Numbered from the stretch's first letter, positions 3,920 through 63,062 are shown. The stretch: 64,000 nucleotides of DNA from Candidatus Sericytochromatia bacterium (GCA_018780035.1 JADMKE010000003.1:338753-402752); one strand, 5' to 3'. Notes: generated by a model from the letters alone, not told the origin. Program-made: numbers and translations.

Positions 3920-3926
3920 TATTTCC

Positions 3927-11637: not shown

Positions 11638-11677
11638 TTGCGCCCTAAATTTCAAGGTTTTTTTATTAAAATAGCTG

Positions 11678-12568: not shown

Positions 12569-12628
12569 AGCCAAACTGTTGGGCTTTGTGACCAAATCCT
12601 GACAACCCTGAATGTTATACTAACAAAC

Positions 12629-32258: not shown

Positions 32259-32351
32259 TTGGGCGGTCAGTGTTGCTGTTAGCTCATTATAACACCCTCC
32301 CTCTCAGAAGGGCTCTGGACAAGCCCAGGAGATAGGCCTAAAATTAGGATC

Positions 32352-40227: not shown

Positions 40228-41280
40228 TTAACGCTGGTTTTGCCTCAAGAGATCAACCATCTCCGGATAAAAGCCTTGCTGAGCATAATTAAGAGCCGTG
40301 TGTCCAGTTTGATCTTTGATACCTGGATCTGCTCCCAAATCAAGCAATACCTCTGCCATGTGTAAATGATTCGCAACAGCGGCATAAAACAGGGCTGTCC
40401 AGCCAGAGTCAGTTTGGGCATTCACATTCACACCCAATTGATGCAAAAATCTTAAATTGGCGGGCTGTCCACCCTGACTTGCAGCAATCAGTGTCGTCTC
40501 CCCATCTTTGGCGCGTGCGAGCGGATCCAGCCCTTTTTCGATCAAAAAATTGAGCATATCAAGTGAGGCTGAGCGGGCGGCATCAAAGAGCAGGGTTTTT
40601 CGATCTGCATTTTTGTGGTGCAAATTCAAGCCTTTGGTATGTAAAAATCTGACCAAGTCCAAATTGCCACTGAGCACTGCTGCCGTCAAAAGGCTGTCTC
40701 CTGCTGGGGAGATAAATCCAATTTTCACGCCTTGTGTGAGTAAAAAATCCACCATTTCCAGATTGCCAGATTTGGCCAATTCCCAAATCAGCGGGAATGG
40801 GCCATAAACCGTTTGATTGGGATTGGCCTCATGAAGGAGTAAAAGCTTCATGATTTGGTTCTGTTGTTTAGAGGCCTGAGAGTGATACGCAAATAACAGC
40901 GCACTTCGTCCATCATGGGTTTGGTATTTGGGATTCATGCCCTGCTTAATTAAGAACTGAACCAATTCCAAATTGCCACTCTGGGCAGCCCACATCAGGC
41001 AATTATTCTGATCTTGATCTTTGACTTGCAACTTGGCCCCTTGCTTCAAGAGCTTTTTGACCTCTTCAAGCTGGCCCAAAGAACAGGCTCGGATGATGAT
41101 CGGCGCTTTGTATTCATAGCCATCCTGCAATTGCCACACAATGGTGCGATTTGGATTCTGAATGGGTTTGGCCTGGACCGCGAGATGGACTCCTTGGCTC
41201 AAAACCAATCCCAATACGCTTGTTTGTAAACAATTCAGAAGCTTCTTTAATCCACAGAATTTCAGAGTAGGGATACGCAT
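40228..41280 (-). CDS. Secreted ankyrin-repeat protein
   Basis: 350 aa with N-terminal signal-like segment and about 8 ankyrin repeats (NCLMWAAQSGNLELVQFLIKQGMNP, TLLFDAARSASLDMLNFLIEKGLDP, TALFYAAVANHLHMAEVLLDLGADP). Confidence 0.8.
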   Translation of the reverse strand: MRIPTLKFCGLKKLLNCLQTSVLGLVLSQGVHLAVQAKPIQNPNRTIVWQLQDGYEYKAPIIIRACSLGQLEEVKKLLKQGAKLQVKDQDQNNCLMWAAQSGNLELVQFLIKQGMNPKYQTHDGRSALLFAYHSQASKQQNQIMKLLLLHEANPNQTVYGPFPLIWELAKSGNLEMVDFLLTQGVKIGFISPAGDSLLTAAVLSGNLDLVRFLHTKGLNLHHKNADRKTLLFDAARSASLDMLNFLIEKGLDPLARAKDGETTLIAASQGGQPANLRFLHQLGVNVNAQTDSGWTALFYAAVANHLHMAEVLLDLGADPGIKDQTGHTALNYAQQGFYPEMVDLLRQNQR

Positions 41281-41282
41281 GT

Positions 41283-43763
41283 TTATTCAGATTTTAAAGT
41301 CAATATTTTCCCCGATTTTTTTAAGCTCCCCCCCAATCGATTGACTCCGCGAATTTCATAAGTCTTGATTTTTCCCGCAACTTGTTTCAAGGGGGAATAG
41401 AGCACAAAACCTGCTTGTTTTTCATTGCCAGAATAGTCTTTCTGCAATAGAAACAGATCCAAGTGGTTTTTTTTGCCCGAAAGGGGATGACTTAATTCTT
41501 TCCAATATTTGGCACTTTCAAGATTTGCTGCCTGATACAAAGTCTGAAAATCTGGGGGATAATTTCCTTCATGGTCGACAGCATAGGTTTCTAACATCGT
41601 TTGCAATTCCGACATGTTTTGACTGACCGCATGTTCGAATTTTTCATGGTCTAACTGCAAGGCATTCAGGGCCTTTAAACTGTCTTGAACGGTGACCAGT
41701 TTCAAATTCTGATTGGGCAAAAAACGCTTTAATTGGAGTTGGATCAAATCCAAAGGTGTTCTTTTCAACTTGTCTTTCAGTTGAAGCGGAGCCCCATTTT
41801 GAATCAGCAATTGCGCACTTTCATAATTGCCCAATTGGAGCACCTGATGTAATAAACTCATTCCCTGTGCATTCTGAGCTTTGAGGTCGATCAAGACAGG
41901 TTTTTCAAGCAAAGATGCCTTGAGCAAAGTGAGTTCCTGATCTTTGAGCAGCATAAAAGGCAGATCGCCCTGTTTGTTGACGCTTTTCGGATTGGCTCCC
42001 AGTGAGACCAATTGCAAGACATTGTCGCGATTTCCTGCCCTAAAAGCCCTGTGTAAAGCAGCATTTCCAAAAGCATCTGTTTGATTTAATCCAAAGCCTT
42101 TGCTTTTAAAATAGCGTAATAATTCAGGATTGCCCTTTTCAGCAACTTCAAACCACATGTTCAAATCTTTTTTGTCTAATTTGATTCCGATCGATTCCAA
42201 AGTTAAGAAGGTATTTATATTATTGGATTTGATGGCTTGACTTAAGAGAGCCAAACGCTCTTGAAACTTCCAATTTTTTTGAGTTTCTTGTGATACCAAC
42301 CATTTAAAATGGTCTAACCGCTCTCGTTGGATGAGATTTAAACGCAAATCTGAGCGAAGTTGCAGATCTGGTTTGCACAATTGAAAGAGTTGCGAAAAGA
42401 GCGGCAAAGGGGCATTATTTGAAGCAGAATAAAGTCCCTGACTTTGTTGACTGGGTGAGAGCTTGCGAAAGAGCAACAATGCAATTTGAGGCTGTGGCAG
42501 AGAGAGTGAAGCTTCAAACGCGGGAAACAGATCACGGGCTCCTTTGCTTAAAAGATCTTGAACCCCTGCTGTATAGCCCCTGGCAACAACAAAAGGCAAG
42601 AGTCTCTCTGCTTGGGTTGGCTCGGGTATGGACGGAAACAGTTGTTTGCGTAAATTGAATAAATTGAGATAATCTGAAGGTATTCCTCCCCCCTGACCAT
42701 AAGCCATTTGGGCATAATGAACCCCCAAATTTTGATTCAATTCAGCAGCCTTGATAAAATGAATCAGGGCTTGATTGGGATCCTTTTTTTCCCCGATTTC
42801 CATCAAAAACATGCGTCCCCTGAAAAAATAAGCCTCTGGCTCCTGAAGGGACATGGCTTTGTCTAACCAGCGTTTGCCTTGTTCAAGATCAGCAGGCATG
42901 CCAAGGCCTTCAATCAACAGCTCTCCTATCATCGCCATGGCAAACGTGTTACCGGACTCTGCAGCAAGTGTATAGGCCTCAAATGCAATTGTAAAATACT
43001 GCCAAAAATATAAATAATCTGTAAATTCGATCAGACTTTTCCATTTTTTTTGTGAGGCATACAGCTTAACCGCCGCCAAAGCTGCATTTTTGGCAAGATC
43101 TGGTTTTTCCTGATCTTTTAAAAGTGCAGCCAAAGTCTGATAAGCAAAAGCATACCCTTGCTCTCCCAAAGACTGGTACAAGGCCTCTGCCTTGGCAAAA
43201 TCCGGTGCTCCTCCCACTCCCCGGTGATACAGTCCGGCCAACATAAACTGTCCCATTGGCAGCGTTTGCGCTTCAGGCTTGGTGAGCCAATAACGGGCTT
43301 TGGGGGCATCTTTGAGTGCGGGCACGATGGCTTCATCAGCAAAAGCAGAGACCATGCCCAAAAGGATTTGGGCATAAGGGTCTCCTTTCTCCGCTTGTTT
43401 TTCCAATTCACTTAGACCCTGTTTGCACAGCGGTGCACGGGTTTGTCCGTCTGGGAATAGTGCTTTTAATGCGGCCTCTTCTTCAAGACAGGTATAAGCC
43501 ATGGCCTGAGGTTCTGAGTGCGCCAAAGCGGCTTTAAGATAAGTTAGCAATTGTGTTTGACGCTGATCTGAATCCGTATTTGTTAATACCCCATTAATAT
43601 TGGCCATCGAAGCCCACACCGCTTGAGATTTTGGGTCTCCCGTTTGGGCCAATCGTTCAATTTCGCTCCAACTTTTCACAGGGGGTGCGGTCTGTGATAG
43701 CGCCCCTGATGGCATGCACAAGAGGGAACCTGCCAAGATTAAACACAAGAAGTTATTTTTCAT
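41283..43763 (-). CDS. Secreted Sel1/TPR-like repeat plus ankyrin-repeat protein
   Basis: 826 aa with signal peptide MKNNFLCLILAGSLLCMPSGALSQ. Sel1-like units (AQILLGMVSAF..., AMAMIGELLIEGLGMPADLEQGKRWLDKA). Ankyrin units (NAALHRAFRAGNRDNVLQLVSLGANP, MSLLHQVLQLGNYESAQLLIQNGAPL). Confidence 0.75.
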   Translation of the reverse strand: MKNNFLCLILAGSLLCMPSGALSQTAPPVKSWSEIERLAQTGDPKSQAVWASMANINGVLTNTDSDQRQTQLLTYLKAALAHSEPQAMAYTCLEEEAALKALFPDGQTRAPLCKQGLSELEKQAEKGDPYAQILLGMVSAFADEAIVPALKDAPKARYWLTKPEAQTLPMGQFMLAGLYHRGVGGAPDFAKAEALYQSLGEQGYAFAYQTLAALLKDQEKPDLAKNAALAAVKLYASQKKWKSLIEFTDYLYFWQYFTIAFEAYTLAAESGNTFAMAMIGELLIEGLGMPADLEQGKRWLDKAMSLQEPEAYFFRGRMFLMEIGEKKDPNQALIHFIKAAELNQNLGVHYAQMAYGQGGGIPSDYLNLFNLRKQLFPSIPEPTQAERLLPFVVARGYTAGVQDLLSKGARDLFPAFEASLSLPQPQIALLLFRKLSPSQQSQGLYSASNNAPLPLFSQLFQLCKPDLQLRSDLRLNLIQRERLDHFKWLVSQETQKNWKFQERLALLSQAIKSNNINTFLTLESIGIKLDKKDLNMWFEVAEKGNPELLRYFKSKGFGLNQTDAFGNAALHRAFRAGNRDNVLQLVSLGANPKSVNKQGDLPFMLLKDQELTLLKASLLEKPVLIDLKAQNAQGMSLLHQVLQLGNYESAQLLIQNGAPLQLKDKLKRTPLDLIQLQLKRFLPNQNLKLVTVQDSLKALNALQLDHEKFEHAVSQNMSELQTMLETYAVDHEGNYPPDFQTLYQAANLESAKYWKELSHPLSGKKNHLDLFLLQKDYSGNEKQAGFVLYSPLKQVAGKIKTYEIRGVNRLGGSLKKSGKILTLKSE

Positions 43764-43805
43764 TTTTTACCTTTCAGCAACTTGAGCAGATCTGTATGGC
43801 CTTGT

Positions 43806-45281
43806 TCATTGGCCAGGTCCAGCGCTTTTTTGCCTTAATTGTTTATTTTGATACTGATTTAATCTGATTAACAGTTCAGGTCGTTCAAATTCTTGGGCAT
43901 AATCCAAGGCATTTTTGCCTTCTGGATCACGTAAATCAGGATTTGCACCCTTTTTTAATAAAGCCTCGACAATCTGGGTATGTCCATTGATAACTGCATA
44001 GTTCAGCGCAGTTGTTTGAAATGCCGTGTGTTTCAAATTGGGATTGTGACCTTTTTTGAGAAAATAGTCCACAATATTGAGATGTCCATTGAGAGCGGCT
44101 ATCACAAAACCATTCTGATTGCTGATAGATGGAGCGCTTGGCGAGAGGCCCTTTTGAACCAAATATTCCAAGATCTTTAAATGTCCCTTTTCTGCAGCGA
44201 AGTAAAGGGCATTTTCCTGATATTTATTTTCGGCTTTGAGATTCAATCCTTGTTTAAGCAGGTATTGAACCATCTCCAGATTGCCACTGCCCGCAGCAAA
44301 CATCAAGAGTGTATTTTTTTCAATGCTTTGGGTTTGAAGATTCGCTTTGTGTTTCAATAAGAGTTGCAGGGTATCAAAATGACCCTTTTCTGCAGCAAAG
44401 ATCAAAGCATCTTTGCCCCAAGTTTCTTCTTTATCTGAAATAGGGGCTTTCAGTTGTAGAAACAGATTGACCAATTCATTGTTTCCAGAATCAGCCGCTT
44501 GCATCAAAGCCGTGAATCCCTTGTTTGCACCTTGTGAAAGCTTGATTTTTGCCCCTTTTTGGAGCAAGAATTTGACAATATCTACTTGGCCATCTGCAAC
44601 TGCATAAATCAACGCAGTGATGCCGTCATTGTTGTGTGCCTCAAGCTCAGCGCCATTGGCGAGGACATATTTTACCAATTCCAAGTTCCTCCCAAAAACG
44701 GCATAAACCAACAGGGCATTGCCATTGTCCTTTTTTTGACTGAGATCTGCACCAGCAGCCTGTAATCTTTGTAAGATTTTCAAATTGCCCGCCTGCGCAG
44801 CAAGCATCAGGCTGTTTGTCGTGTCTGGAAGAAGTGCGTTGGGATCCGCGCCTTTTTTTAACAGTTCATCGAGAGCTTCAACTTGTTCATTTAGCACAGC
44901 CAGCAACAAGGCACTTGCCCCATTTTCAATCCGCTCATTGGGGTCCAACCCTTTTTCAAGCAGGACTTTCACTAAGTCACTTTCGCCAAAGACAACGGCC
45001 CAGATTAAGAGTTTGCTTTCAACTTGTGTCCCTGTGCTATCATCCCATTTGATCGGCTTTTGCAAATCTGCCAGTTTAGCCTGTTGCACCCAGGCTTTTA
45101 ATGCCACTCGGTTACCTGCATCTAATAATTGTTGAAGTGAACTGGATTCAACAGCCACACTGCCCCAAATTGAAGCGAAAAGGGGGTTGGCATGAGCCAA
45201 ACCTGTATGTGAGGAAAATAGGGCGAATGTCAAACCCATAAGCAGTTTATTTTTAAATCCAGAATAGCTCATTTTGAACAA
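43806..45281 (-). CDS. Secreted ankyrin-repeat protein
   Basis: 491 aa. Signal peptide MFKMSYSGFKNKLLMGLTFALFSSHTGLAHA. More than 10 ankyrin repeats (TALIYAVADGQVDIVKFLLQKGAKI, TALNYAVINGHTQIVEALLKKGANP). Confidence 0.8.
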   Translation of the reverse strand: MFKMSYSGFKNKLLMGLTFALFSSHTGLAHANPLFASIWGSVAVESSSLQQLLDAGNRVALKAWVQQAKLADLQKPIKWDDSTGTQVESKLLIWAVVFGESDLVKVLLEKGLDPNERIENGASALLLAVLNEQVEALDELLKKGADPNALLPDTTNSLMLAAQAGNLKILQRLQAAGADLSQKKDNGNALLVYAVFGRNLELVKYVLANGAELEAHNNDGITALIYAVADGQVDIVKFLLQKGAKIKLSQGANKGFTALMQAADSGNNELVNLFLQLKAPISDKEETWGKDALIFAAEKGHFDTLQLLLKHKANLQTQSIEKNTLLMFAAGSGNLEMVQYLLKQGLNLKAENKYQENALYFAAEKGHLKILEYLVQKGLSPSAPSISNQNGFVIAALNGHLNIVDYFLKKGHNPNLKHTAFQTTALNYAVINGHTQIVEALLKKGANPDLRDPEGKNALDYAQEFERPELLIRLNQYQNKQLRQKSAGPGQ

Positions 45282-51516: not shown

Positions 51517-51531
51517 GCAGAGATCTTAACA

Positions 51532-51606
51532 AAAATGCAGCCGGACTTGAACCGGCAACCCCCTTATTGGTGACAAGGTGCTCTTCCAAAGTTGAGCTAT
51601 GCACTT
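51532..51606 (-). tRNA. tRNA with atypical anticodon loop (UCACCAA; nominal anticodon ACC, Gly-like), possibly variant or pseudo-tRNA
   Basis: Folded by hand on the minus strand. Acceptor AAGUGCA/UGCAUUU with one G-U pair. D arm GCUC-AACUUUGGAA-GAGC. Anticodon stem CCUUG/UAAGG. T arm GCCGG-UUCAAGU-CCGGC. Discriminator U and no encoded CCA. Position 33 is C, not the near-universal U. Confidence 0.55.
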
Positions 51607-51649
51607 CCATGTTAATTGTACCATTGACCTTGAGAACAAATAGGTTCAA

Positions 51650-51723
51650 AAAACGCAGCCGGACTCGAACCGGCAACTTACGGCTTTGCAGGCCGTTGTT
51701 CTTCCTGTTTGAACTATGCGCTT
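51650..51723 (-). tRNA. tRNA-Cys (anticodon GCA)
   Basis: Folded by hand. Acceptor AAGCGCA/UGCGUUU. D arm GUUC-AAACAGGAA-GAAC. Anticodon stem-loop ACGGC-CUGCAAA-GCCGU. T arm GCCGG-UUCGAGU-CCGGC. Discriminator U73, as expected for Cys. Confidence 0.8.
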
Positions 51724-51772
51724 TCTAGCCAAATTTTACCATGGGGCTTGTGCAGAAGAACTCAAAAACACT

Positions 51773-53575: not shown

Positions 53576-53669
53576 AAGGTCTTGCGCGGAATTGGGAGCT
53601 GCCCAGCAAGCCCTAACTTTGCCTGTGGTATAATGCCCAGCAAATCCATGCACAAGGACACCTACCCGC

Positions 53670-54305
53670 ATGATCGAACTGAGAACGTTTACATATATCG
53701 ACATTTTGCAGCCCCAGGTCGCCGCTTTCCAGGCCACCGTCTCTCAGGGCTATCTGCCCATTGAAGGGCAGGCCTCCCTCTTTATTGAAATCGGGCCAGG
53801 GATTGAAATCAACCGCCTGACCGATGTGATTCTCAAACGCACCCGGGTCAAACCAGGCATGCAGGTTGTGGAACGCCAATTTGGTATCCTCGAAGTCCAC
53901 GATTTTGACCAAGCCGAAGTGCGCTCTGCTGGCGACATCGTGCTCGAAGAGCTGGGCATGGATATCAACCAACGGATCAAACCCACCATCACCACCAATC
54001 AGATGATCACCGGCATTGACCCCCACCACTCGATGCTGATCAACCGCATGCGCCATGGGGATATGATCAAAGCCGGTGAAACCCTCTACGTACTCGAAAC
54101 CTATCCCGCTGGTTATGCTCTGCTGGCCGCCAACGAAGCCGAAAAAGCCGCTCCGCTGAAGATTCTCGAAATCCGTGCTGTCGGTGCCTTTGGTCGCCTG
54201 CACTTGGCCGGTGGCGAAGATGAAATCAAAGAAGCTGTTAAAGCCATGACATATACGCTCGAAAAAATGGAGGGCCGAGTGGATAACTCGTCGGGAGACG
54301 CGTGA
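53670..54305 (+). CDS. Tandem BMC-domain protein (BMC-T-like bacterial microcompartment shell protein homolog)
   Basis: 211 aa = two ~95-aa halves. Each matches the BMC-domain consensus (cf. PduA ...[42 protein letters not shown]...). Half 1: LTDVILKRTRVK...GILEVHDFDQAEVRSAGD. Half 2: TLYVLETY...ALLAANEAEKAAPLKILEIRAVGAFGRLHLAGGEDEIKEAVKA. Its stop overlaps the GTG start of HMG-CoA reductase (GTGA). Confidence 0.6.
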   Translation: MIELRTFTYIDILQPQVAAFQATVSQGYLPIEGQASLFIEIGPGIEINRLTDVILKRTRVKPGMQVVERQFGILEVHDFDQAEVRSAGDIVLEELGMDINQRIKPTITTNQMITGIDPHHSMLINRMRHGDMIKAGETLYVLETYPAGYALLAANEAEKAAPLKILEIRAVGAFGRLHLAGGEDEIKEAVKAMTYTLEKMEGRVDNSSGDA

Positions 54306-55597
54306 AAACATCTCGCATACCCGGTTTTTATCTGCTCTCGATTGAGCAGCGGATCGAAAAACTGGCGGAAGTCTACGAACTGGGTGTGGAAGAAGTCGAA
54401 GCCCTCAGTTCCCAAGGGGCCTTGGCCCTGGAACAAGCAGATAAAATGATTGAAAACGCCGTGGGCATTTATTCTTTGCCCATGGGTGTGGGCGCCAATT
54501 TTTTGATCAATGACAAAGAATATTTGGTGCCGATGGCGATTGAAGAGCCTTCTGTTGTCGCCGCTGCCAGTTTTGCCGCCAAGATCATTCGCTGTGCAGG
54601 GGGCTTTAAAACCACCAGCACAGAACCCCTGATGATTGGTCAGATTCAGGTCGTGCATTGTGAAGACTTTGAGGCTGCGGGGGCTGCTGTTCTGGCGGCC
54701 AAAGACGAACTCATCGCCGAAGGCAATCAGTATGTCGCCAATTTGGTCACGCGCGGCGGCGGTGTGAAAGACATCGAAGTGCGTCAGCTCGGCAGCCCTG
54801 AATCGCCGTATGGTCAAATGCTGGTGGTCCACGTTTTAATCGACACCTGTGACGCCATGGGTGCCAATTTGATCAATACCACCGCAGAGGGCTTGGCTCC
54901 CAGCATTGAAAAACTCACAGGTGGTCGGGTTTATCTGCGCATTCTCTCCAATTTGGCCGACCGCCGTTTGGCCAAAGCCACGGTCGAAATCCCACCCCAT
55001 TGTTTTAATACCTCCAAGCTCAACGGCGAAGACGTGATTGAAGGCATTGTGCAGGCCCAGAACTTTGCTGTGCTCGATCCTTACCGGGCCGTCACCCACA
55101 ACAAAGGTGTGATGAACGGCGTTGATGCCGTGATCATGGCCACAGGCAACGATTGGCGTTCGGTTGAAGCGGCTGCCCATGCTTATGCGGCCCGTTCAGG
55201 CCAATACCGTGCCATGACCGAGTGGTACCGCAACGAAGCGGGTAATTTGGTAGGAGAATTGGAATTGCCGATGGCAGTGGGCATTGTCGGGGCTGCGGTT
55301 TCGCTGCACCCGATGTCCCAGATTGCACTCAAATTCTTGCGCGTGCGCAGTGCCCGTGAATTGGCTGAGGTCTGTGTCTGTGTCGGGTTGGCTCAAAACT
55401 TATCTGCGATTCGGGCCTTGGCCACCGATGGTATTCAAAAAGGCCACATGGCCCTGCATGCCCGCACAGTGGCCATGACAGCCGGCGCCACTGGTGATAT
55501 GATCGACGACTTGGCGGCTCAATTGGTGAGCTTAAAAGACGTCTCTGTCAGCCGCGCTCGCCAAATTTTGGAAGAGCAAACCGCACCCACGCCATGA
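54302..55597 (+). CDS. mvaA: Hydroxymethylglutaryl-CoA reductase, class II
   Basis: 431 aa. The whole N-terminus aligns to Pseudomonas mevalonii class II HMGR (ENAVGIYSLPMGVGANFLINDKEYLVPMAIEEPSVVAAASFAAKI vs [45 protein letters not shown]). GTG start. Confidence 0.9.
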   Translation: MKTSRIPGFYLLSIEQRIEKLAEVYELGVEEVEALSSQGALALEQADKMIENAVGIYSLPMGVGANFLINDKEYLVPMAIEEPSVVAAASFAAKIIRCAGGFKTTSTEPLMIGQIQVVHCEDFEAAGAAVLAAKDELIAEGNQYVANLVTRGGGVKDIEVRQLGSPESPYGQMLVVHVLIDTCDAMGANLINTTAEGLAPSIEKLTGGRVYLRILSNLADRRLAKATVEIPPHCFNTSKLNGEDVIEGIVQAQNFAVLDPYRAVTHNKGVMNGVDAVIMATGNDWRSVEAAAHAYAARSGQYRAMTEWYRNEAGNLVGELELPMAVGIVGAAVSLHPMSQIALKFLRVRSARELAEVCVCVGLAQNLSAIRALATDGIQKGHMALHARTVAMTAGATGDMIDDLAAQLVSLKDVSVSRARQILEEQTAPTP

Positions 55598-55607
55598 GAT
55601 CTGAGTT

Positions 55608-56558
55608 ATGGCTATAGGACAAGCCTGTGCCAAGCTGATTCTCTTGGGGGAACACGCGGTGGTTCACCACATGCCTGCCTTGGCTTTGCCTTTGCCTCAG
55701 CTTCAGGCCCAGGTCTGGATTGAAACTTCAGAATCACCCGGTGTGCTGATCGAAGCACCCGATTTGCCTGCACTCTGGGAATTGCCTGAAGCGCCTCTTG
55801 CTTCTCCCGATCCCCTGATTGAAACCCTGGTGCGGGCCTTGGCAGAATACGGTGCGACTTGGCCCGATTGCACCCTGCGCATCGAAAGCCAAATTCCTGT
55901 GGCCCGAGGTCTTGGCAGTGGTACTGCTGTCACTGCCGCGCTTTGGCGGGCTCTCAGTTCCTGGTTGAACCACTTCCCCAGCCCAGAACAGACCCTGGAT
56001 TTTGTTTCAGGCATCGACCAAATTTACCACGGACGCCCCAGTGGCATCGACGCACAGGTGATCGTGCGCGAAACGCCGCTCTGGTTCCACCGCAGCCAAG
56101 GGGTGAGGGCCTTGCCCTTGCCACAGCCCTTACATTTGCTTGTGGCGGATACAGGGCTGGCTGCCGTAACCCGCACCCAGGTTGAAATAGTCGCAGATTG
56201 TTTAAATGCAGAACCTGAAAAAGCCCAAACTTGGATCCGCGAAATTGGCGATTTGGTGCAGCGGGCCGAAAGCTGTTTGGCACTTAACCAAATTGAACCC
56301 CTGGGGGTTTTGCTCAACCGCAACCACGAATTATTGATTCAATTGGGGGTATCTCACCCCCAATTAAACACCCTCTGCTCAGCCGCCCGTCAAGCGGGGG
56401 CTCTCGGCGCCAAGCTCTCTGGGGCTGGCGGAGGCGGAGTGATGGTGGCCCTGAGTGAAAAAGCCCAAAGCCCAAGCGTCAAAAAGGCGCTGGAACAGGC
56501 TGGGGCAACCCAGGTTTTTGAAATAGACATTCCCGCAACGGAGGTTTCCCATGACTGA
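55608..56558 (+). CDS. mvk: Mevalonate kinase (GHMP kinase family)
   Basis: 316 aa. KLILLGEHAVV near the N-terminus and the GHMP ATP-binding motif PVARGLGSGTAVTAAL. Confidence 0.85.
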   Translation: MAIGQACAKLILLGEHAVVHHMPALALPLPQLQAQVWIETSESPGVLIEAPDLPALWELPEAPLASPDPLIETLVRALAEYGATWPDCTLRIESQIPVARGLGSGTAVTAALWRALSSWLNHFPSPEQTLDFVSGIDQIYHGRPSGIDAQVIVRETPLWFHRSQGVRALPLPQPLHLLVADTGLAAVTRTQVEIVADCLNAEPEKAQTWIREIGDLVQRAESCLALNQIEPLGVLLNRNHELLIQLGVSHPQLNTLCSAARQAGALGAKLSGAGGGGVMVALSEKAQSPSVKKALEQAGATQVFEIDIPATEVSHD

Positions 56559-57576
56559 TCATGGCATAAGTCAGCGAAAATTGGACCATATCGCCCTGGC
56601 ACTGGGCTCCCGCTCTCAATTCACCCAACCCACGGGTTTTGAACAATTGCATTTTGTCCACCAGGGGTTGCCCGAGGTCAGTTTGGAAGAAATTGACCTC
56701 TCCTGTGAATTTCTGGGAAAAAAACTGGCGGCCCCACTTTTGATTGCCAGTATGACCGGCGGGCCGATTCAGGGGGGGCGAATCAATCACTATTTGGCCC
56801 AGGCCGCACAAAACACTGGGATTGGCATGGGGGTGGGTTCACAAAGGATCATGTTTTTGGACCCCGCGTCTCACGCCAGTTTTGATCTGCGCAAATACGC
56901 CCCGGATATTTTGCTCCTGGCCAATCTCGGCGCCGTGCAGTTGAATTTTGGTTTTGACGAAAATCATTGTCGCCAAGCTGTCGAGATGATTGGGGCCGAC
57001 GCCCTGTATTTACACCTGAATCCCCTGCAAGAGGCCATTCAGCCCGAAGGAGACACCCATTTTAAAGATCTCTGGCCCAAAATTGCCCATTTGGTACAGG
57101 TGCTGACTTTTCCTTTGCTCTTAAAAGAATGTGGCTGTGGTCTGTCGGGAGAATTGGCGAAAAAAGCCGCTGAAGTGGGCATTGCAGCCTTAGAGGTCAG
57201 TGGCGCAGGCGGCACTTCTTGGGCGCTGATCGAATCCCAACGCAGCACAGATCCATTGCGCCGCCAATTGGGAGAGACCTTTGCCAATTGGGGTATTCCC
57301 ACCCCCCTTTCGTTGCAATTCTGCCGTCAAGCGGCTCCCAAAATGCCCCTGATTGCCTCAGGCGGCATCCGCTCAGGCTTGGATGCCGCCAAAGCTCTGG
57401 CCATGGGTGCACAAATGGTGAGTGTGGCCCATCCATTTTTGCAGGCGGCGACAGAATCTCCCGAAGCTCTCTCAGCCCGGATTCAGCTCTTTTTGATGGA
57501 ATTGCGGGTGGCCATGTTTTGTGTCGGAGCCAAGAATTTGGATGAGTTGCGGGGGAAAGAGCTGATTCGGTTTTAG
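56551..57576 (+). CDS. fni: Type 2 isopentenyl-diphosphate delta-isomerase (FMN-dependent)
   Basis: 341 aa. RKLDHIALAL, APLLIASMTGG, GMGVGSQR, LEVSGAGGTSWA and IASGGIRSGLDAAKALAMGA are IDI-2 signatures. 8-nt overlap with mvk. Confidence 0.85.
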   Translation: MTDHGISQRKLDHIALALGSRSQFTQPTGFEQLHFVHQGLPEVSLEEIDLSCEFLGKKLAAPLLIASMTGGPIQGGRINHYLAQAAQNTGIGMGVGSQRIMFLDPASHASFDLRKYAPDILLLANLGAVQLNFGFDENHCRQAVEMIGADALYLHLNPLQEAIQPEGDTHFKDLWPKIAHLVQVLTFPLLLKECGCGLSGELAKKAAEVGIAALEVSGAGGTSWALIESQRSTDPLRRQLGETFANWGIPTPLSLQFCRQAAPKMPLIASGGIRSGLDAAKALAMGAQMVSVAHPFLQAATESPEALSARIQLFLMELRVAMFCVGAKNLDELRGKELIRF

Positions 57577-57644
57577 GATTCAGGAGATAGTATTCGGCCA
57601 TATAATTTGGGCATTGGGGGCTTTCCCTGTAAAATTGAGGAGCA

Positions 57645-60600
57645 TTGTACTCAATCCAGCAAGGAGACGCACAAATGTGGCATTCTTGGTCTAAATTGGG
57701 ACTTGGGTTGGGATTGTTGGGGACCTTTGGACTCATCCACGGGCCAGCGATAGGGGGTGAAAAAATGCCAACTCCCAAACAGGGGCTAGCAGATTCAACG
57801 ACTTTTAACATGAAATCACTTAAAAACTGGATCGACCAAGCTATAAAAGCCCCGCCTGAAAAACGTCAACTCCTGATCCAAACCCAGCGAGAACTGGCTT
57901 ATCAGGCACTCTGGTTGGCTCTCTTTGACCAATTGTCGGCCAAGCTTTACCACCATCAGGCTTGGTATAGCCAAACAGAAATTTGGCCATTGCTGGTTGC
58001 TATAAAGGATCCGGTCTTGGATTTGATGGCTAGAGGATTGTTTCACTGGCCCGATCTCGCTTTGATCGATTCTCAACTCATGCAAGCCCGTACCCAATTT
58101 GAGGCAGATATACCGGCTCTCATTTGGCATTGGTTTGAGAGTTATTCCGTTTCAGAGCAACTTGATCTGATGGGAAAATTGATTCAACCAGACAGAGGCG
58201 GACTTTTGGGCTTTTTTTACTTTATGTCACGACCAGAAAGCCAAGATTATCCTGAATTTGCATCCGTCCTGGCATTGCCACTTCCCCGGTATTTTGAACT
58301 CAGTCTGGATTTAAGGCACAACGATGATTCGCCAGAAAAAAAACAAGAACAACGCAAACAGGTGCAAACCCTTTTGGAACAGGCAAAAGACTTGGAACAC
58401 CCTGCCCTGCAAATTCTGGTCCTGCAATTGTCCGCAGAAATAGCGCTTCAGGACCATCAAACGGAATTGGCTGAGAGTCAATTTGCGCAGGCTTTAACTA
58501 TCGCTCAGCGCCATCATCTGACTTTTTTAGAGGCACGAATCCGCTTGGGACATGGGACTTCAGATCGGTCTCTGGAACTCTCTCGCTTTACCCCTATTGA
58601 GGATATACCCAGAATTGAAAAAGCCTTGTCTGCAAATTCTGCTGCACTGACTGAATTTAAGCGCTATCTCGCCCAATGGTTCTGGCAGATGGGGGAAGTC
58701 GAAAAAGCCCAGCAAGGGTTTTTAAGCTTGCTCTCTGCCGACACCCCAGAACCAACCTTGGGATTGGTCTTAGACAGTATCGAGCGGGGAGAAGGTCGCT
58801 TCTTATTAGGCCCGATCGAAGAGCTGATGAAACGCTCAGAATCTGGTTTTAAAGCCAAATTGGCCAAGGTCTGGTTACACCTGAAATACCCCAAAACTGA
58901 GGTGATTGTAAATGGTGAACCCAAATGGCCCCCAAATATAGATTATTCACCCTTTTTAAACCAACTCAAACAAGGGAATAATCAGCTCAAAGCGGCTTTG
59001 TTGAGTGCCGTTGAAAATCGCCCATTTTTGTATTCGCCGCCTGAAATCAAGGGAATCATACACAACTTATTACAAGACCCACAGATCCGGCCCCACATTG
59101 ACACTGTTTTTCTCAATATTCCCACTGAACTCTTCCGTGCAGAGATTTTGCCTTCAGTCCAAGACCCAGACCCGCGTGTGGTCAAAGCAATACTTGCACT
59201 TTGGCCCTACCGGGTTCAGGCAGAAGATTTTGAGCTGTTAACACGATTGAGCCAAGCAGCTGATTCAGCCATCCAAGCGGAGGCATTTAACACCTTGGGA
59301 CATCTTCAGTCACCCGGGGTTTTGCCTTATTTAAGGGCACGTCTAAAACAGGCCGATGCCAAACAACAACAGTCCATTTTCGATGCCTTGGCCCAATTGG
59401 GCGATTGGCAAACGGTTTTAGAATTTCAACATTCAGCACACTATACAGACGACATGCTCAAAAAGGCATTGAACCAACGACAAAACCGAAATACCTCGCT
59501 GACATCCTCTGAGTTAATCAGCCTGGAAAAGGCCTTTGAAACACAATCAGGTTCAATTATTCAGGCATTAATTACAGAACTCTTTGAAACCCCTGACTTT
59601 CCACTTTCCCGGTTTTTGCCTCAACTCAAGCGCCTCAAACAAGAACCAATCCCAGAATTGCGCGAGATGTCCTTGCAGTATATTTTGCAAATCATTCCCG
59701 CAGGGGCAATCAAAGAATTGCTTTTGCACGATGCATTGAGAGATACCAGCCCCTTGGTTCGTCGCATTGCAGTGCGGGAATTGCCCTGGAATCAGCTGAG
59801 CAAGACCGAATTGGATGCGCTCTTGGCGGATTCAGATCCCTACATTATAGCCCAGCTGTTGGAAACCCTTTCTCCTCCCCTATTGACCCTCGACTTGATT
59901 GAAAAAGGGCTCTCATCTGAATCGAAAGATACCCACCAAATCGCTTGGCGCGCAGTCAAGCGCTTGAATCAAAATCAAGTGCCTGCATTTTTGCAAAATC
60001 AGCTCAACGCGACTCAGGATATCCAGCGTCGCCGCCAAGCGCTGGATCAGATGAATCAAATTTTGACTTTAAACCAAGGCCAAATACTCTTGCCTTTGTT
60101 GGATGACCCAGACCCGGAAATTCAGGCCTTGGCCATTTCGGGACTCTTACGCACCCAAACAGCTGTGCCCGAAGCCCGTTTGCAAGAACTCTTAAAAACG
60201 GCCTCTCCACTGGTCCAAGTCAAAATCTTGCACTGGATTCAAGCCCGCGGAACCTCAACTTTGATTCCCGCGCTTTTGCAAGCATTGGATCTCAAACAGA
60301 TTATTCCCTATCCCACAGTGGACAATGAAGAAAATTACAAAACCCTACAAACCAGAATCTATGAGCCCAATTTGAGTTTACAAGCCTTTATCCTCCGCAA
60401 CCTGATGCGCATAGCCCCTGAATCTGTTTTACCGGTCCTGCCTGCCCTGCTAGAATCTCCTGATCCAACGATGCAAAAATGGGCCTTGGAACAGTTTCAA
60501 ACAAATAGAGAAAAAATAAAATTTAGTGAAGAGGCGCTCAACCACCTGAGACAATCCCCCAGTCAAGCAGCCCAATCTGCGTTAAAAAGCTATTTGGCAC

Positions 60601-63062
60601 CCTCTGAAAGTGGTGAAGACAATACAGACTGGCTTGAATCACGCCTGCCAAATCAGCTCGACCTGGCACAATTAAAAGTCATCCTGAAAACATTCACAGC
60701 AGAAGAATGGCTCGACGAATTCAATGACCTCCAAGCCCACCCCGCTTGGGGAGCTGAATTGGCCGTAGAATTGATGGAAACCTATGGCAACGATTTCGAG
60801 ATTCGCGAGACCCTACTCAGAGCTGAGATTTGGAAAAAGAATCCCCTGGCTTTGAATTTTCTGCTGAAATGGTACCCCGAAACAGAAGTTTGGCAACAAC
60901 GAGAAATCTTGCTTCTCTGTGTCCAAAGCCCCTTACCCGAAGCTCAGGCTTTTTTGCTGAGTCAAACCCAACCAGGTATACCTGAACAACGTCAAAGTGA
61001 AGCTATTGGAATGTGTTTGGAAAAAAAATGCCCCGCGTCCCACAATCTGCGCAAAAAAATAGTGAATAACCCCTCAATTTATGCCCCAGAGAGTCTGGCA
61101 CGGGTGCTGGGCTGGCTCAGTCGGCAACACGATCCCGAAACCGACCAAGACATTTTTGCCTTGCTCAAAGATCCACGCCTTGAAAAAAACAGTGGGTATA
61201 TTCCGATCGAAGTCGCCCAGCACCTCGCTTCTGAACGGGATACCCCAACCTTGTTGCAGTGGTTCTCGCAACGGCCTCAACGTCCCTTGAACCAAGACCT
61301 TTTTTATGCCGAGGTGTTGATTCAATTGGCCCAGCGGGATAAATTGCCTGCTCAATTGACCCAGACCTTTTTAGATAAGTCCTTTCCCCTGATCGGAAAT
61401 AGGGGTGAGGGGCAGGATATAACGGGTAAAATTCATGAATTTCTGAGTGCCTGTTATGATTGCCGACTCACAGAGACACAATTCAAAGCCTTATTCGCCG
61501 GGTTTGTGGCACAGGAATATCCCAGTCAAGAATATCTCTTACCTTGGTTAATCGGTGCAGAGCATCGGTTATGGCCCTTGATTCTGAAGGATCTCAAACA
61601 GAGTCAACCCAAGCATCTGAATGGAATTTTGTTTTTGTTGCTTTCGCTTCCCCCTGGCCCGCCTGAACTCTTGACCCTTTTGCAAAAGCTAAGTCCACCC
61701 CCTGAATTAAATTTTCAGCACCAGCTGGCACGCGCCCGGCAAGGCGATTTAAAGGTTTTTCCGCCATTGCTCAAAGAATTGCAAAACCAAGCTTCAAAGA
61801 TCAGGGCCATGGTTTATCAGAATGTGGGCTATATCAACGATCCCCGGATTCCAGCCCTTCTGATCGGGGGAATTTCAGATCAAGGGCAACCCCAAAACGA
61901 TGACGGGGAGCCGGGATTTGTCCCTGCAAGAGAAGCCCTTCAAGGGCTTCAGAACCATTTAAAACGCTATCCCAAACAGATCTCCCAAGCAGAAAATGCC
62001 ATCAAAAAAGCCCCACTAGAAGTACTTGAAAGACTCTTTACTTATCATCCACCCAAACTGCCTTGGGAGGCCTTAAAATCGGGCCTGATTCCGCATTTCG
62101 AAGCCCAGCTCAGCCAAGCGAATTTACAAAATCGTGCCATGGCCATCACTGCGCTGGGTCAATTGGGAGATGTGGATTTGCCCTCGCTTTTGCTCAAAGC
62201 TCCTGCATTTTATTGGAATGAGACAGAAACAAACGATGGGGATTGGAGCCTCAAAAACTACACAGACAATGCCTTGGTCGATTTACTACACCAGAATCCA
62301 GCAGCTGCCATTTTGATGTTAGAAGCACTGTTCAAACAAACCCCTGGATCTGACAAATTCCTGGACAGTCTGACCAGAGGTGATTATATTCTCAAAAAAG
62401 CCGCATTGTTGGGGAAATTTAAAACCTGGCTCTCAACCCAGCCCCCTCAAACATTGGCATTGGGTTTGCAGATCCTCGCCCATTGGGATGATCCCAGTGT
62501 GTTGCCTTTACTCAAAACATACCAAGAACATGCTCAGGCAGAAGTCCAAGCTGCTGCTAACAAAGGGCGTTTATACCACCAAGACCCTGAACTCAAGCAA
62601 ATGCTTGTGCAATCTCTGCAAACAGTTCAAAATCCTGGTTTGGACAAGCATTTAAAAGAACTTGAAGCGTATACCAGTCCTGAGTTGGTTCCCGAATTGG
62701 TAACTTTGTTTCTGCAATTGCTCAAACCGGACTTGTGGATAGCAGAAAATCAACACTTTTTGCGCCGCAATCTCTGGCGAACACTGGATTTATTGTTTAA
62801 AAACGCAGACCGTTCTCTCTTGGCAGAATCACAGATCATCTATACAGCTCTGCAAAAAACAAAACAATCCCGTTCCGTGACTCAGGCAAATTTGGAAGAT
62901 ATTATCGACATGACAATAACAGAATTGGTCAATCATCTCATTCAACAGAATCAGCCAAACCACCTCTCTTATTTGAGAAAGATCCGTGCAGAGGTAGGAT
63001 GGGGTTCACAACACGCTATCAACCGCTATTTTTGGTCTTTGCAAGGGGTTCAACTTCCTTGA
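57645..63062 (+). CDS. Giant secreted HEAT/ARM-repeat protein (1805 aa)
   Basis: N-terminal hydrophobic signal-like segment LGLGLGLLGTFGLIHG. Numerous HEAT-like units (DPDPRVVKAILALWPY, DTSPLVRRIAVREL, DSDPYIIAQLLETL, DPDPEIQALAISGLL, SPDPTMQKWALEQF). Confidence 0.65.
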   Translation: MYSIQQGDAQMWHSWSKLGLGLGLLGTFGLIHGPAIGGEKMPTPKQGLADSTTFNMKSLKNWIDQAIKAPPEKRQLLIQTQRELAYQALWLALFDQLSAKLYHHQAWYSQTEIWPLLVAIKDPVLDLMARGLFHWPDLALIDSQLMQARTQFEADIPALIWHWFESYSVSEQLDLMGKLIQPDRGGLLGFFYFMSRPESQDYPEFASVLALPLPRYFELSLDLRHNDDSPEKKQEQRKQVQTLLEQAKDLEHPALQILVLQLSAEIALQDHQTELAESQFAQALTIAQRHHLTFLEARIRLGHGTSDRSLELSRFTPIEDIPRIEKALSANSAALTEFKRYLAQWFWQMGEVEKAQQGFLSLLSADTPEPTLGLVLDSIERGEGRFLLGPIEELMKRSESGFKAKLAKVWLHLKYPKTEVIVNGEPKWPPNIDYSPFLNQLKQGNNQLKAALLSAVENRPFLYSPPEIKGIIHNLLQDPQIRPHIDTVFLNIPTELFRAEILPSVQDPDPRVVKAILALWPYRVQAEDFELLTRLSQAADSAIQAEAFNTLGHLQSPGVLPYLRARLKQADAKQQQSIFDALAQLGDWQTVLEFQHSAHYTDDMLKKALNQRQNRNTSLTSSELISLEKAFETQSGSIIQALITELFETPDFPLSRFLPQLKRLKQEPIPELREMSLQYILQIIPAGAIKELLLHDALRDTSPLVRRIAVRELPWNQLSKTELDALLADSDPYIIAQLLETLSPPLLTLDLIEKGLSSESKDTHQIAWRAVKRLNQNQVPAFLQNQLNATQDIQRRRQALDQMNQILTLNQGQILLPLLDDPDPEIQALAISGLLRTQTAVPEARLQELLKTASPLVQVKILHWIQARGTSTLIPALLQALDLKQIIPYPTVDNEENYKTLQTRIYEPNLSLQAFILRNLMRIAPESVLPVLPALLESPDPTMQKWALEQFQTNREKIKFSEEALNHLRQSPSQAAQSALKSYLAPSESGEDNTDWLESRLPNQLDLAQLKVILKTFTAEEWLDEFNDLQAHPAWGAELAVELMETYGNDFEIRETLLRAEIWKKNPLALNFLLKWYPETEVWQQREILLLCVQSPLPEAQAFLLSQTQPGIPEQRQSEAIGMCLEKKCPASHNLRKKIVNNPSIYAPESLARVLGWLSRQHDPETDQDIFALLKDPRLEKNSGYIPIEVAQHLASERDTPTLLQWFSQRPQRPLNQDLFYAEVLIQLAQRDKLPAQLTQTFLDKSFPLIGNRGEGQDITGKIHEFLSACYDCRLTETQFKALFAGFVAQEYPSQEYLLPWLIGAEHRLWPLILKDLKQSQPKHLNGILFLLLSLPPGPPELLTLLQKLSPPPELNFQHQLARARQGDLKVFPPLLKELQNQASKIRAMVYQNVGYINDPRIPALLIGGISDQGQPQNDDGEPGFVPAREALQGLQNHLKRYPKQISQAENAIKKAPLEVLERLFTYHPPKLPWEALKSGLIPHFEAQLSQANLQNRAMAITALGQLGDVDLPSLLLKAPAFYWNETETNDGDWSLKNYTDNALVDLLHQNPAAAILMLEALFKQTPGSDKFLDSLTRGDYILKKAALLGKFKTWLSTQPPQTLALGLQILAHWDDPSVLPLLKTYQEHAQAEVQAAANKGRLYHQDPELKQMLVQSLQTVQNPGLDKHLKELEAYTSPELVPELVTLFLQLLKPDLWIAENQHFLRRNLWRTLDLLFKNADRSLLAESQIIYTALQKTKQSRSVTQANLEDIIDMTITELVNHLIQQNQPNHLSYLRKIRAEVGWGSQHAINRYFWSLQGVQLP

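What the first reader, a model, noticed from the sequence alone, without database searches (positions are those of the whole stretch)
53670..57576. Tandem BMC-domain shell protein gene translationally coupled to a partial mevalonate pathway operon (class II HMGR - mevalonate kinase - IDI-2)
A 211-aa protein with two canonical BMC domains (BMC-T-like) ends with a stop overlapping the GTG start of class II HMG-CoA reductase (GTGA). Mevalonate kinase and type-2 IPP isomerase follow in tight succession. No BMC-H or BMC-P shell genes and no HMG-CoA synthase, phosphomevalonate kinase or diphosphomevalonate decarboxylase are present in the window. A lone BMC-T shell homolog embedded in an isoprenoid-precursor operon is not a described arrangement. 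It could mean a repurposed BMC-fold protein, for example a cofactor-binding PduT-like protein or a scaffold, or a link to a microcompartment encoded elsewhere.
Basis: partly seen in the sequence, partly recalled or inferred. Interest (0 to 1): 0.75.

Follow-up and report, generated by a model that had tools for sequence, protein, structure and literature searches.

The report
Satellite microcompartment shell gene heading mevalonate operon
The gene is a genuine gated shell protein of a bacterial microcompartment whose other parts are most likely encoded elsewhere in the genome, and in one lineage of non-photosynthetic cyanobacterial relatives it is always the first gene of an operon for making isoprenoid precursors, a link nobody has described and whose purpose is unknown.

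Summary
A 211-aa tandem-BMC protein (53670-54305) ends in a GTGA overlap with class II HMG-CoA reductase, followed by mevalonate kinase and IDI-2. The 64-kb window has no BMC-H, BMC-P or other mevalonate genes.

The domains are not canonical. The protein is a circularly permuted, double-stacking, gated BMC-T^dp. Its best match is Haliangium ochraceum BMC-T3 (5V76; TM 0.94-0.96). It is below the CcmP cutoff and has no cysteine, so it is not PduT-like.

It is probably not "lone". It shares a 90%-identity cluster with Ca. Blackallbacteria COW36_04485, which the 2021 BMC catalog lists as a satellite of a scattered "FRAG2" microcompartment in a genome that also has BMC-P. A related genome encodes a deoxyribose-phosphate aldolase with a BMC-type targeting peptide.

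What is new is the linkage. All seven lineages with at least 70% identity keep BMC-T, HMGR and (where the contig reaches) MVK despite different flanks. No relative at 67% identity or below does. The BMC-T is the most constrained gene of the four. The mevalonate enzymes lack targeting peptides, so they are probably cytosolic.

Best reading: a satellite shell gene co-transcribed with mevalonate genes. Moderate interest.

The parts
53618..57577 (+). Conserved four-gene block (promoter region to IDI-2 stop), shared as one unit with Ca. Blackallbacteria CG17
   Evidence: blastn of L175 against the window aligns 9953-13894 to 53618-57577 at 74% nt identity. The next shared segment lies 21 kb away, at 27368-32318.
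53626..53634 (+). Extended -10 promoter-like element TGGTATAAT, 35 nt upstream of the BMC-T ATG; an AAGGA Shine-Dalgarno-like motif lies at 53654-53658
   Evidence: Read directly from the sequence. It was not called by the two-hexamer scan because there is no good -35. It lies inside the block conserved with CG17. Function is inferred, not shown.
53670..54305 (+). BMC-T^dp shell protein gene (211 aa): permuted tandem BMC domains, HO-T3-like/CcmP-like subclade. Identical to GenBank MBT9544342.1 (IV090_03055).
   Evidence: NCBIfam CcmP 263 bits, below the 340 cutoff. PDB 5V76 257 bits. Fold TM 0.94-0.96 to 5V76. Gating pair E68-R69, edge lysines K56 and K159, and the AANEAEKA motif are conserved. 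Same 90% cluster as COW36_04485.
54302..55597 (+). Class II HMG-CoA reductase (431 aa); the GTG start overlaps the BMC-T stop (GTGA)
   Evidence: PF00368 366 bits. TIGR00532 437 bits. Aligns 3-424 to 4-423 of PDB 6DIO and 4-426 to 1QAX, so there is no terminal extension.
55608..56558 (+). Mevalonate kinase (316 aa)
   Evidence: TIGR00549 214 bits against a cutoff of 163. Aligns 3-303 to 8-301 of PDB 2X7I.
56551..57576 (+). Type 2 isopentenyl-diphosphate isomerase (341 aa)
   Evidence: TIGR02151 391 bits against a cutoff of 281. Aligns 6-336 to 3-328 of PDB 1VCF. Present next to MVK only in the window, L001 and CG17.

Best explanation
The 211-aa protein is a bona fide BMC-T^dp shell protein of the HO-T3-like/CcmP-like subclade. 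By homology, three chains form a pseudohexameric tile and two tiles stack face to face around a small chamber. Each central pore is opened and closed by a conserved Glu-Arg pair (E68/R69 here), and the tile fits into shell facets through conserved edge lysines (K56, K159). It is a satellite shell gene of a microcompartment whose BMC-H and BMC-P genes lie elsewhere in the genome, in the scattered 'FRAG2' organisation already catalogued for the sister genome Ca. Blackallbacteria CG17. In this one Sericytochromatia/Blackallbacteria lineage the gene has become the first cistron of an operon with class II HMGR and MVK (plus IDI-2 in the closest members), and it is translationally coupled to HMGR. 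The mevalonate enzymes carry no encapsulation peptide, so they most likely work in the cytosol, and the link is one of co-expression rather than encapsulation. Shown here: the protein's identity, fold and conserved residues; the operon structure; and clade-wide conservation of the gene order. Taken from the literature: shell genes elsewhere, and only for the sister genome. Inferred: that the protein enters a shell in this organism, and why it is co-expressed. One plausible logic is that an SPU-like compartment converts deoxyribose-phosphate-derived acetaldehyde to acetyl-CoA, which is the mevalonate precursor.
For: Identity: (5V76 257 bits; TM 0.94-0.96; 57% identity). All class-invariant residues are kept and only four mild substitutions are clade-specific. 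Satellite status: the window protein shares a 90% cluster with COW36_04485. The catalog lists that protein as 'FRAG2 (sat), ccmPlike, swampGreen' beside HO-T3, and lists COW36_19470 as a BMC-P of the FRAG2 main locus (PMC8217296 supplements). The CG17 locus has the same BMC-T-HMGR-MVK-IDI2 layout. In the catalog tree passages I retrieved, every swampGreen member (HO-T3 and the other HO-type entries) is marked as a satellite. Cargo in the lineage: on the 169-kb contig of a 78%-identical relative, RpiB plus a 463-aa DERA lie 9 kb from the BMC-T. The DERA's N-terminal amphipathic helix MNIEQITQEVVKELM shares the 'ITxEV' motif with DERAs that sit inside BMC-H/AldDH loci. Operon: GTGA overlap. Gene order is conserved in 7 lineages at 70-99% identity with different flanks. 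Homology with CG17 starts at 53618 and ends at 57577. The BMC-T is the most constrained gene: 92% aa identity with 78 synonymous and 16 nonsynonymous codon differences, against 85, 64 and 77% for HMGR, MVK and IDI-2. No encapsulation peptide: HMGR, MVK and IDI-2 align end to end with solved homologs and lack the motif.
Against: I could not search the window's own genome for BMC-H or BMC-P. The evidence for shell genes elsewhere is second-hand and concerns a sister genome. No shell gene was seen within 10 kb of the BMC-T or of the DERA in any Sericytochromatia contig examined. The DERA catalytic domain is as similar to ordinary non-BMC DERAs (63-64% identity) as it is to BMC-locus DERAs, so only its short N-terminal motif is BMC-specific. 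That helix is followed by an extra ~150-aa alpha/beta domain that is absent from the SPU-locus DERAs. Co-expression was not measured, and the promoter is only a consensus match.
Confidence: 0.7

Rival explanations
1. Direct functional partnership. The T^dp works with the mevalonate enzymes themselves. It could be a docking platform or metabolite-gated chamber for HMGR/MVK. Or it could be the specific conduit through which a FRAG-type compartment delivers acetyl-CoA/CoA/NAD(P)H to or from HMG-CoA reduction. On this reading the operon reflects a physical or metabolic coupling.
For: Only the BMC-T-HMGR-MVK trio survives while the flanks are reshuffled in 7 lineages, even though MVK has diverged to 36-42% identity. 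The translational coupling is conserved: a 4-nt overlap in the window, CG17, L081 and L084. The BMC-T is under the strongest constraint in the block. A second group of HO-T3-like satellites sits directly upstream of a thiolase, and in L022 also a 3-hydroxyacyl-CoA dehydrogenase, which is again CoA-thioester/NAD chemistry. From established enzymology: HMGR chemistry (thioester to aldehyde to alcohol, using CoA and NAD(P)H) mirrors the metabolosome core.
Against: No encapsulation peptide or extension on HMGR, MVK or IDI-2. No T^dp residue changes suggest a new interface. The linkage is confined to one clade: 0 of about 160 other loci, including other Sericytochromatia at 66-67% identity. Outside that clade the subclade's neighbours are housekeeping genes with no common theme.
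Confidence: 0.15
2. Neutral synteny. The shell gene landed upstream of HMGR once in the clade's ancestor and has simply not been separated since. The co-transcription has no adaptive meaning.
For: The linkage has a single phylogenetic origin, with all cases at >=70% identity forming one clade. Satellite shell genes elsewhere sit in arbitrary contexts.
Against: The flanking genes on both sides differ in every lineage, while the trio and the 4-nt overlap persist across divergence deep enough to bring MVK to 36-42% identity. Neutral adjacency is not expected to outlast its neighbours so consistently.
Confidence: 0.25
3. Orphan, repurposed BMC-fold protein. The genome has no microcompartment, and the T^dp acts alone, for example as a small ligand-binding double-ring cage or a regulator.
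For: No shell gene in the 64-kb window, or within 10 kb in any clade member. The catalog itself says that FRAG loci mostly lack recognisable enzymes and have no known function.
Against: The catalog reports a BMC-P and a 'main' locus in the sister genome. The edge lysines and the KAA-type motif that mediate tiling with BMC-H are invariant. A DERA with a BMC-type targeting motif exists in the clade.
Confidence: 0.08
4. True CcmP: a beta-carboxysome component or its relic, as might be expected in a sister group of the Cyanobacteria.
For: The best NCBIfam hit is the CcmP model (E=1.8e-78). The lineage belongs to the Cyanobacteriota/Melainabacteria group.
Against: The score of 263 bits is below the 340-bit equivalog cutoff. 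The protein is closer to HO-T3 (257 bits) than to CcmP (214 bits). It clusters with the solo HO-T3-like proteins, whereas cyanobacterial CcmP clusters with the BMC-locus (mostly SPU-type) T^dp. There are no carboxysome or RuBisCO genes in the window.
Confidence: 0.02

Closest known systems
Haliangium ochraceum BMC-T3 (Hoch_3341, PDB 5V76), catalog subclade 'Tdp_swampGreen_ccmPlike-HoT3like'
   Same: 57% identity, TM 0.94-0.96, same length class, same gating and edge residues, and also encoded away from the main shell locus as a satellite.
   Different: HO-T3 belongs to the HO metabolosome of a myxobacterium. In a Haliangium MAG (L011) and other Myxococcota loci the homologous gene lies between RluB and TldD-type housekeeping genes, not in a mevalonate operon.
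Ca. Blackallbacteria CG17 COW36_04485 (UniRef A0A2M7G8W5), catalogued as FRAG2 (satellite) BMC-T^dp
   Same: Ortholog: 92% aa identity, same 90% cluster, and the same BMC-T-HMGR-MVK-IDI-2 block.
   Different: Different flanks: type I-F CRISPR-Cas downstream, and no 21-kb insertion upstream. The catalog lists the shell gene but says nothing about the mevalonate genes.
CcmP / CsoS1D (carboxysomal BMC-T^dp)
   Same: Same fold and gated double-stack architecture. CcmP is also always encoded in a satellite locus.
   Different: Below the CcmP equivalog cutoff, a separate sequence cluster, and no carboxysome context.
Satellite loci that combine a shell protein with enzymes (for example the EutL + EutABC 'EUT modules' of HO/SPU3/SPU6 BMCs, PMC8217296)
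   Same: [quoted passage not shown]
   Different: In the EUT modules the enzymes are BMC-type signature enzymes that extend the compartment's substrate range. Here the enzymes are anabolic mevalonate-pathway enzymes without targeting peptides.

Membership tests
BMC-T^dp (permuted, double-stacking tandem BMC shell proteins: CsoS1D/CcmP/HO-T2/T3) | Two circularly permuted BMC domains in one ~200-aa chain | tested here: met
   Full-length alignments to 5V76, 5V74, 5LSR and 3F56. The model (pLDDT 91.9) has TM 0.90-0.96 to all T^dp structures but only ~0.35 to EutL/PduB. PF27545 CsoS1D_N is precomputed on homologs.
BMC-T^dp | Conserved Glu-Arg pore-gating pair | tested here: met
   E68 and R69 are invariant in the window clade, other solo proteins, BMC-locus proteins and cyanobacterial CcmP. 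The catalog states that the gating residues are universally conserved.
BMC-T^dp | Edge lysines / KAA-type motifs for tiling with neighbouring shell proteins | tested here: met
   K56 (D52-x-x-L55-K56) and A153-A-N-E-A-E-K159-A160 are invariant.
BMC-T^dp | Trimer formation and face-to-face stacking of two trimers | not testable with these tools
   Only a monomer could be predicted. Inferred from 57% identity to 5V76.
Satellite locus of a scattered (FRAG2-type) BMC | Shell gene distal from any BMC-H/BMC-P gene | tested here: met
   No BMC-H or BMC-P in the 64-kb window, nor within 10 kb in clade relatives.
Satellite locus of a scattered (FRAG2-type) BMC | [quoted passage not shown] | not testable with these tools
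For the sister genome CG17 the catalog lists BMC-P COW36_19470 as 'FRAG2 (main)'.
CcmP (beta-carboxysome equivalog NF053796) | Score above the curated equivalog cutoff, plus a carboxysome context | tested here: not met
   263 bits against a cutoff of 340. Clusters apart from cyanobacterial CcmP.
PduT-like BMC-T with a 4Fe-4S cluster | Pore cysteine ligand; non-permuted single-layer trimer fold | tested here: not met
   Zero cysteines. The fold matches the T^dp class.
Encapsulated BMC cargo (applied to HMGR, MVK, IDI-2) | N- or C-terminal amphipathic encapsulation peptide on an extension | tested here: not met
   End-to-end alignment with solved homologs leaves no extension. The EP motif is absent.
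Class II HMGR / mevalonate kinase / type 2 IDI | Scores above NCBIfam equivalog cutoffs | tested here: met
   437/260, 214/163 and 391/281 bits.

The most novel reading that the evidence does not exclude
The shell protein and the mevalonate enzymes are functionally tied. In this lineage, either the enigmatic FRAG-type compartment feeds acetyl-CoA (or exchanges CoA/NAD(P)H) through this gated T^dp directly into HMG-CoA reduction, or HMGR/MVK dock on the T^dp. That would be the first natural link between a bacterial microcompartment and isoprenoid biosynthesis, and the first functional clue for FRAG-type BMCs.
Probability: 0.12. Interest if true: 0.8.

Novelty: new variant of a known kind. Interest (0 to 1): 0.4.

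Why it matters
Scattered ('FRAG') microcompartments have no known function, and the catalog's authors explicitly await a clue. A shell gene that stays translationally coupled to HMGR and MVK across a whole clade is a testable lead. It points either to co-regulation of shell permeability with isoprenoid precursor synthesis, or to a metabolic hand-over of acetyl-CoA. It also shows that Sericytochromatia of the Blackallbacteria type carry mevalonate-pathway genes (HMGR, MVK, IDI-2) and microcompartment parts. Finally, it is a useful caution: a 'lone' shell gene in a window is usually a satellite, not an orphan.

Tried and rejected
1. PduT-like Fe-S protein: rejected. The protein has no cysteine and the fold belongs to a different class.

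2. True CcmP or a carboxysome relic: rejected. The score is below the cutoff and the protein falls in a separate cluster.

3. Mevalonate enzymes as encapsulated cargo: rejected. They have no extensions and no EP motif.

4. A family-wide link between this T^dp subclade and mevalonate genes: rejected. None of about 160 loci outside the clade has HMGR, MVK or IDI-2 within 10 kb.

5. A common neighbour theme for the solo subclade: none found. Neighbours are RluB/TldD in Myxococcota, and a ferredoxin-like gene with a thiolase in another group.

6. Looking for shell genes next to the Sericytochromatia DERA: none in four contigs.

7. The metagenome scan gave only one further close relative, L091.

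8. I used 59% identity of the L081 DERA to SPU-locus DERAs as a lead for a 'BMC-type' enzyme. This is withdrawn as evidence, because ordinary DERAs are 63-64% identical. Only the N-terminal motif remains.

9. I did not run the third large protein search for a BMC-P of this lineage. From the catalog tree's branch lengths I estimated that the Blackallbacteria BMC-P would be about 65% identical to any query I could build, so it would not reach a top-120 list.

10. The two-hexamer promoter scan and the terminator scan gave nothing above shuffled expectation inside the block.

11. Pfam found nothing for the DERA N-terminal 200 aa or for the 207-aa gene upstream of the BMC-T in L084.


Full report
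**Observation.** The region holds four co-directional ORFs at the reported coordinates: a 211-aa protein (53670-54305), a 431-aa protein starting at GTG 54302, a 316-aa protein (55608-56558) and a 341-aa protein (56551-57576). The first stop (TGA 54303-54305) overlaps the second start (GTG 54302-54304) as GTGA, and a GGGAG motif sits just upstream. The last three pass curated NCBIfam cutoffs as class II HMG-CoA reductase (437 bits, cutoff 260), mevalonate kinase (214, cutoff 163) and type 2 IPP isomerase (391, cutoff 281). The window has no BMC-H or BMC-P. This was checked by tblastn and by HMMs built from 92 BMC-H and 132 BMC-P sequences taken from fetched loci. Pfam scans of all ORFs of at least 150 aa found no HMG-CoA synthase and no further GHMP kinase.

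**What the first protein is.** Pfam's BMC model gives only a sub-threshold hit on the C-terminal half (18.8 bits, cutoff 24.5), so 'two canonical BMC domains' is not accurate. The NCBIfam CcmP model matches the full length at 263 bits (E=1.8e-78) but stays below its 340-bit cutoff. Homologs carry the newer Pfam family PF27545, CsoS1D_N.

Against solved structures, the best sequence match is 5V76 (Haliangium ochraceum BMC-T HO-3341, 'HO-T3') at 257 bits. It is followed by HO-5816 (215), CcmP (214) and CsoS1D (202). An AlphaFold model (pLDDT 91.9, pTM 0.87) superposes on 5V76 at TM 0.94-0.96 and rmsd 1.3 A, and on all other T^dp structures at TM 0.90 or better. EutL/PduB-type trimers reach only about 0.35.

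The protein is thus a BMC-T^dp. This is the circularly permuted tandem class whose trimers stack in pairs around a chamber and whose pores are gated by a conserved Glu-Arg pair (class description from PMC8217296). E68-R69, the edge lysines K56 and K159, and the AANEAEKA motif are invariant across the window's clade, other solo proteins, BMC-locus proteins and cyanobacterial CcmP. Only four mild substitutions (V17, Q21, K61, H178) are specific to the window's clade. The protein has no cysteine, which excludes a PduT-like Fe-S site.

**Is it lone?** The family is large: 6,631 hits. In 170 loci fetched from genomes and metagenomes, roughly half of the homologs sit inside real metabolosome loci. 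Those loci have a BMC-H next door, an acylating aldehyde dehydrogenase, a deoxyribose-phosphate aldolase (DERA) and BMC-P genes. The rest are 'solo'. The non-cyanobacterial solo proteins, including the window's, form their own sequence clusters.

This clade is already known. In the BMC-T^dp tree of Sutter et al. 2021 (PMC8217296, supplement file 12), the subclade 'swampGreen, ccmPlike-HoT3like' contains HO-T3 (5V76) and other HO-type members, each marked as a satellite. It also contains a 211-aa protein of Ca. Blackallbacteria CG17, COW36_04485, marked 'FRAG2 (sat)'. The BMC-P tree (file 11) lists COW36_19470 of the same genome as 'FRAG2 (main)'. FRAG types are microcompartments whose shell genes are scattered over up to six genomic places. 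They are mostly remote from enzymes and have no known function.

An exact look-up shows that the window's protein is GenBank MBT9544342.1 (IV090_03055, Ca. Sericytochromatia MAG). It lies in the same 90%-identity cluster as COW36_04485. The CG17 locus has the identical BMC-T-HMGR-MVK-IDI-2 layout. So the gene is a catalogued satellite shell gene in a lineage that, according to the catalog, has other shell genes. I could not check the window's own genome beyond 64 kb.

**Supporting hint of cargo.** On the 169-kb contig of a 78%-identical relative, 9 kb upstream of the BMC-T, lie an RpiB gene and a 463-aa DERA. RpiB plus DERA are the signature enzymes of SPU-type microcompartments. The DERA starts with an amphipathic helix, MNIEQITQEVVKELM. 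This helix shares an 'ITxEV' motif with the N-termini of DERAs that sit inside shell-gene loci, for example L144 ELIDQITQEVMKKL and L076 ELIDRITKEVLARL. Forty of 66 long-form DERAs carry the motif.

The same RpiB-DERA arrangement occurs in other Sericytochromatia-type MAGs, without nearby shell genes. There is a caveat. The catalytic domain is as similar to ordinary DERAs (63-64%) as it is to BMC-locus ones, and the helix is followed by an extra ~150-aa alpha/beta domain of unknown function. Only the short motif is BMC-specific.

**The linkage with mevalonate genes.** This is the new part. Every relative with at least 70% identity has HMGR directly downstream, and MVK too wherever the contig reaches that far:
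- the window;
- L001 (99% aa, 90% nt identity);
- CG17/L175 (92%);
- L081-83 (78%);
- L084-85 (76%);
- L091 (76%);
- L086-87 (70%).

The 4-nt stop/start overlap is kept in the window, CG17, L081 and L084.

The flanks differ in every lineage. They include a HEAT-repeat giant, a type I-F CRISPR-Cas system, hexapeptide/PKS genes, a TPR protein or an MMPL transporter downstream, and tRNAs, cbpA/cbpM, DnaJ or topoisomerase IB upstream. MVK has diverged to 36-42% identity between lineages, so the arrangement is old.

No relative at 67% identity or below has it, including other Sericytochromatia (L088, L176). IDI-2 is adjacent only in the three closest genomes.

DNA homology between the window and CG17 begins at 53618 and ends at 57577. 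It starts just before a perfect extended -10 element (TGGTATAAT, 53626-53634), so the block behaves as one unit. Within it the BMC-T is the most constrained gene: 92% aa identity with 78 synonymous and 16 nonsynonymous codon differences, against 85, 64 and 77% for HMGR, MVK and IDI-2.

**Are the mevalonate enzymes cargo?** HMGR aligns 3-424 to 4-423 of 6DIO, MVK 3-303 to 8-301 of 2X7I, and IDI-2 6-336 to 3-328 of 1VCF. There is no room for an encapsulation peptide, and the DERA-type motif is absent. They are most likely cytosolic.

**Mechanism and rivals.**
- Best reading (0.7): a satellite T^dp shell gene of a scattered microcompartment, co-transcribed and translationally coupled with HMGR and MVK in one Blackallbacteria-type lineage. 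Why is not shown. One inference is co-regulation of a gated shell pore with an acetyl-CoA-consuming pathway. An SPU-like compartment would turn acetaldehyde into acetyl-CoA, which is the mevalonate precursor.
- Direct physical or metabolic coupling (0.15): favoured by the persistence of the trio, and by a second group of HO-T3-like satellites that sit directly upstream of a thiolase, and in L022 a 3-hydroxyacyl-CoA dehydrogenase. It lacks any sequence signature.
- Neutral synteny (0.25): consistent with the single origin, but strained by the reshuffled flanks.
- An orphan, compartment-free role (0.08).
- A true CcmP (0.02): effectively excluded.

**Comparison and novelty.** The protein itself is a known kind, and its ortholog is catalogued. 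Satellite loci that pair a shell protein with enzymes are also known, such as the EutL + EutABC modules. What I could not find anywhere is a shell gene heading a mevalonate operon. I checked the catalog's text and 18 supplement files and ran full-text searches. I rate it a new variant of a known kind, of moderate interest. It is a concrete, testable clue for the function or regulation of FRAG-type compartments, but it is confined to one clade and has no evidence of a physical link.

Noticed in passing
window 32300-53620: About 21 kb present in the window but absent from Ca. Blackallbacteria CG17, lying between the shared TPR-GT41/FAD-monooxygenase genes and the BMC-T block. It contains a low-GC stretch (0.43 against ~0.51) with three ankyrin/Sel1-repeat proteins (40228-45281), a 1670-aa TPR protein, an atypical 447-aa SDR and two tRNAs. 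This is possibly a horizontally acquired island.
   Followed up: partly
window 51531-51724 (- strand): Two adjacent tRNA genes with near-identical T-arms and A/U-rich acceptor stems. One is tRNA-Cys(GCA). The other is called tRNA-Gly with the unusual anticodon ACC, has C rather than U before the anticodon, and has a lower Rfam score of 46 bits. The predicted start of the 619-aa ORF (51716) overlaps the tRNA-Cys.
   Followed up: partly
L171 9486-11872 (also L173, L174): Sericytochromatia-type genomes carry RpiB, then a 450-470-aa DERA, then a ~160-aa biotinyl/lipoyl-domain protein. The DERA has an EP-like N-terminal helix, then a confident ~150-aa alpha/beta domain with no Pfam match, then a disordered linker, then the DERA barrel. 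The long form is widespread.
   Followed up: partly
L016 2327-4168; L022 10001-12724; L023 7357-9318; L027: In a second group of solo HO-T3-like T^dp genes (Myxococcota-like MAGs), a thiolase follows the shell gene directly on the same strand. In L022 a 3-hydroxyacyl-CoA dehydrogenase comes next. This is a second case of a satellite T^dp next to CoA-thioester enzymes.
   Followed up: partly
L003/L059, L005/L034, L029/L090: Three Planctomycetota MAGs each carry two T^dp genes. One is solo (HO-T3-like, 61-63% identical to the window). The other sits inside a BMC locus with BMC-H and an aldehyde dehydrogenase.
   Followed up: no
L084 9034-9982; L086 9040-9995: Two small genes (106-108 aa and 207-209 aa, no Pfam match) immediately precede the BMC-T in two HMGR-linked lineages, but not in the window or CG17.
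   Followed up: partly
window 57645-63062 and 119-1003: An 1805-aa HEAT-repeat protein directly downstream of IDI-2, and a 294-aa HEAT/PBS-lyase-like protein at the window start. The 619-aa ORF upstream of the BMC-T has no Pfam or NCBIfam match.
   Followed up: no
window 1000-4036 (- strand): A McrBC-like pair: a PD-(D/E)XK/DUF2357 protein next to an AAA_5 protein.
   Followed up: no
window 15165-18197: A 1010-aa protein with C-terminal Hint/intein-like domains.
   Followed up: no
L175 13929-20636: In Ca. Blackallbacteria CG17 a type I-F CRISPR-Cas system (Cas1, Cas2-3, Csy1-3) starts 36 nt after IDI-2, where the window has the HEAT-repeat gene. A further GHMP-kinase gene lies 9 kb upstream on the opposite strand.
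   Followed up: no
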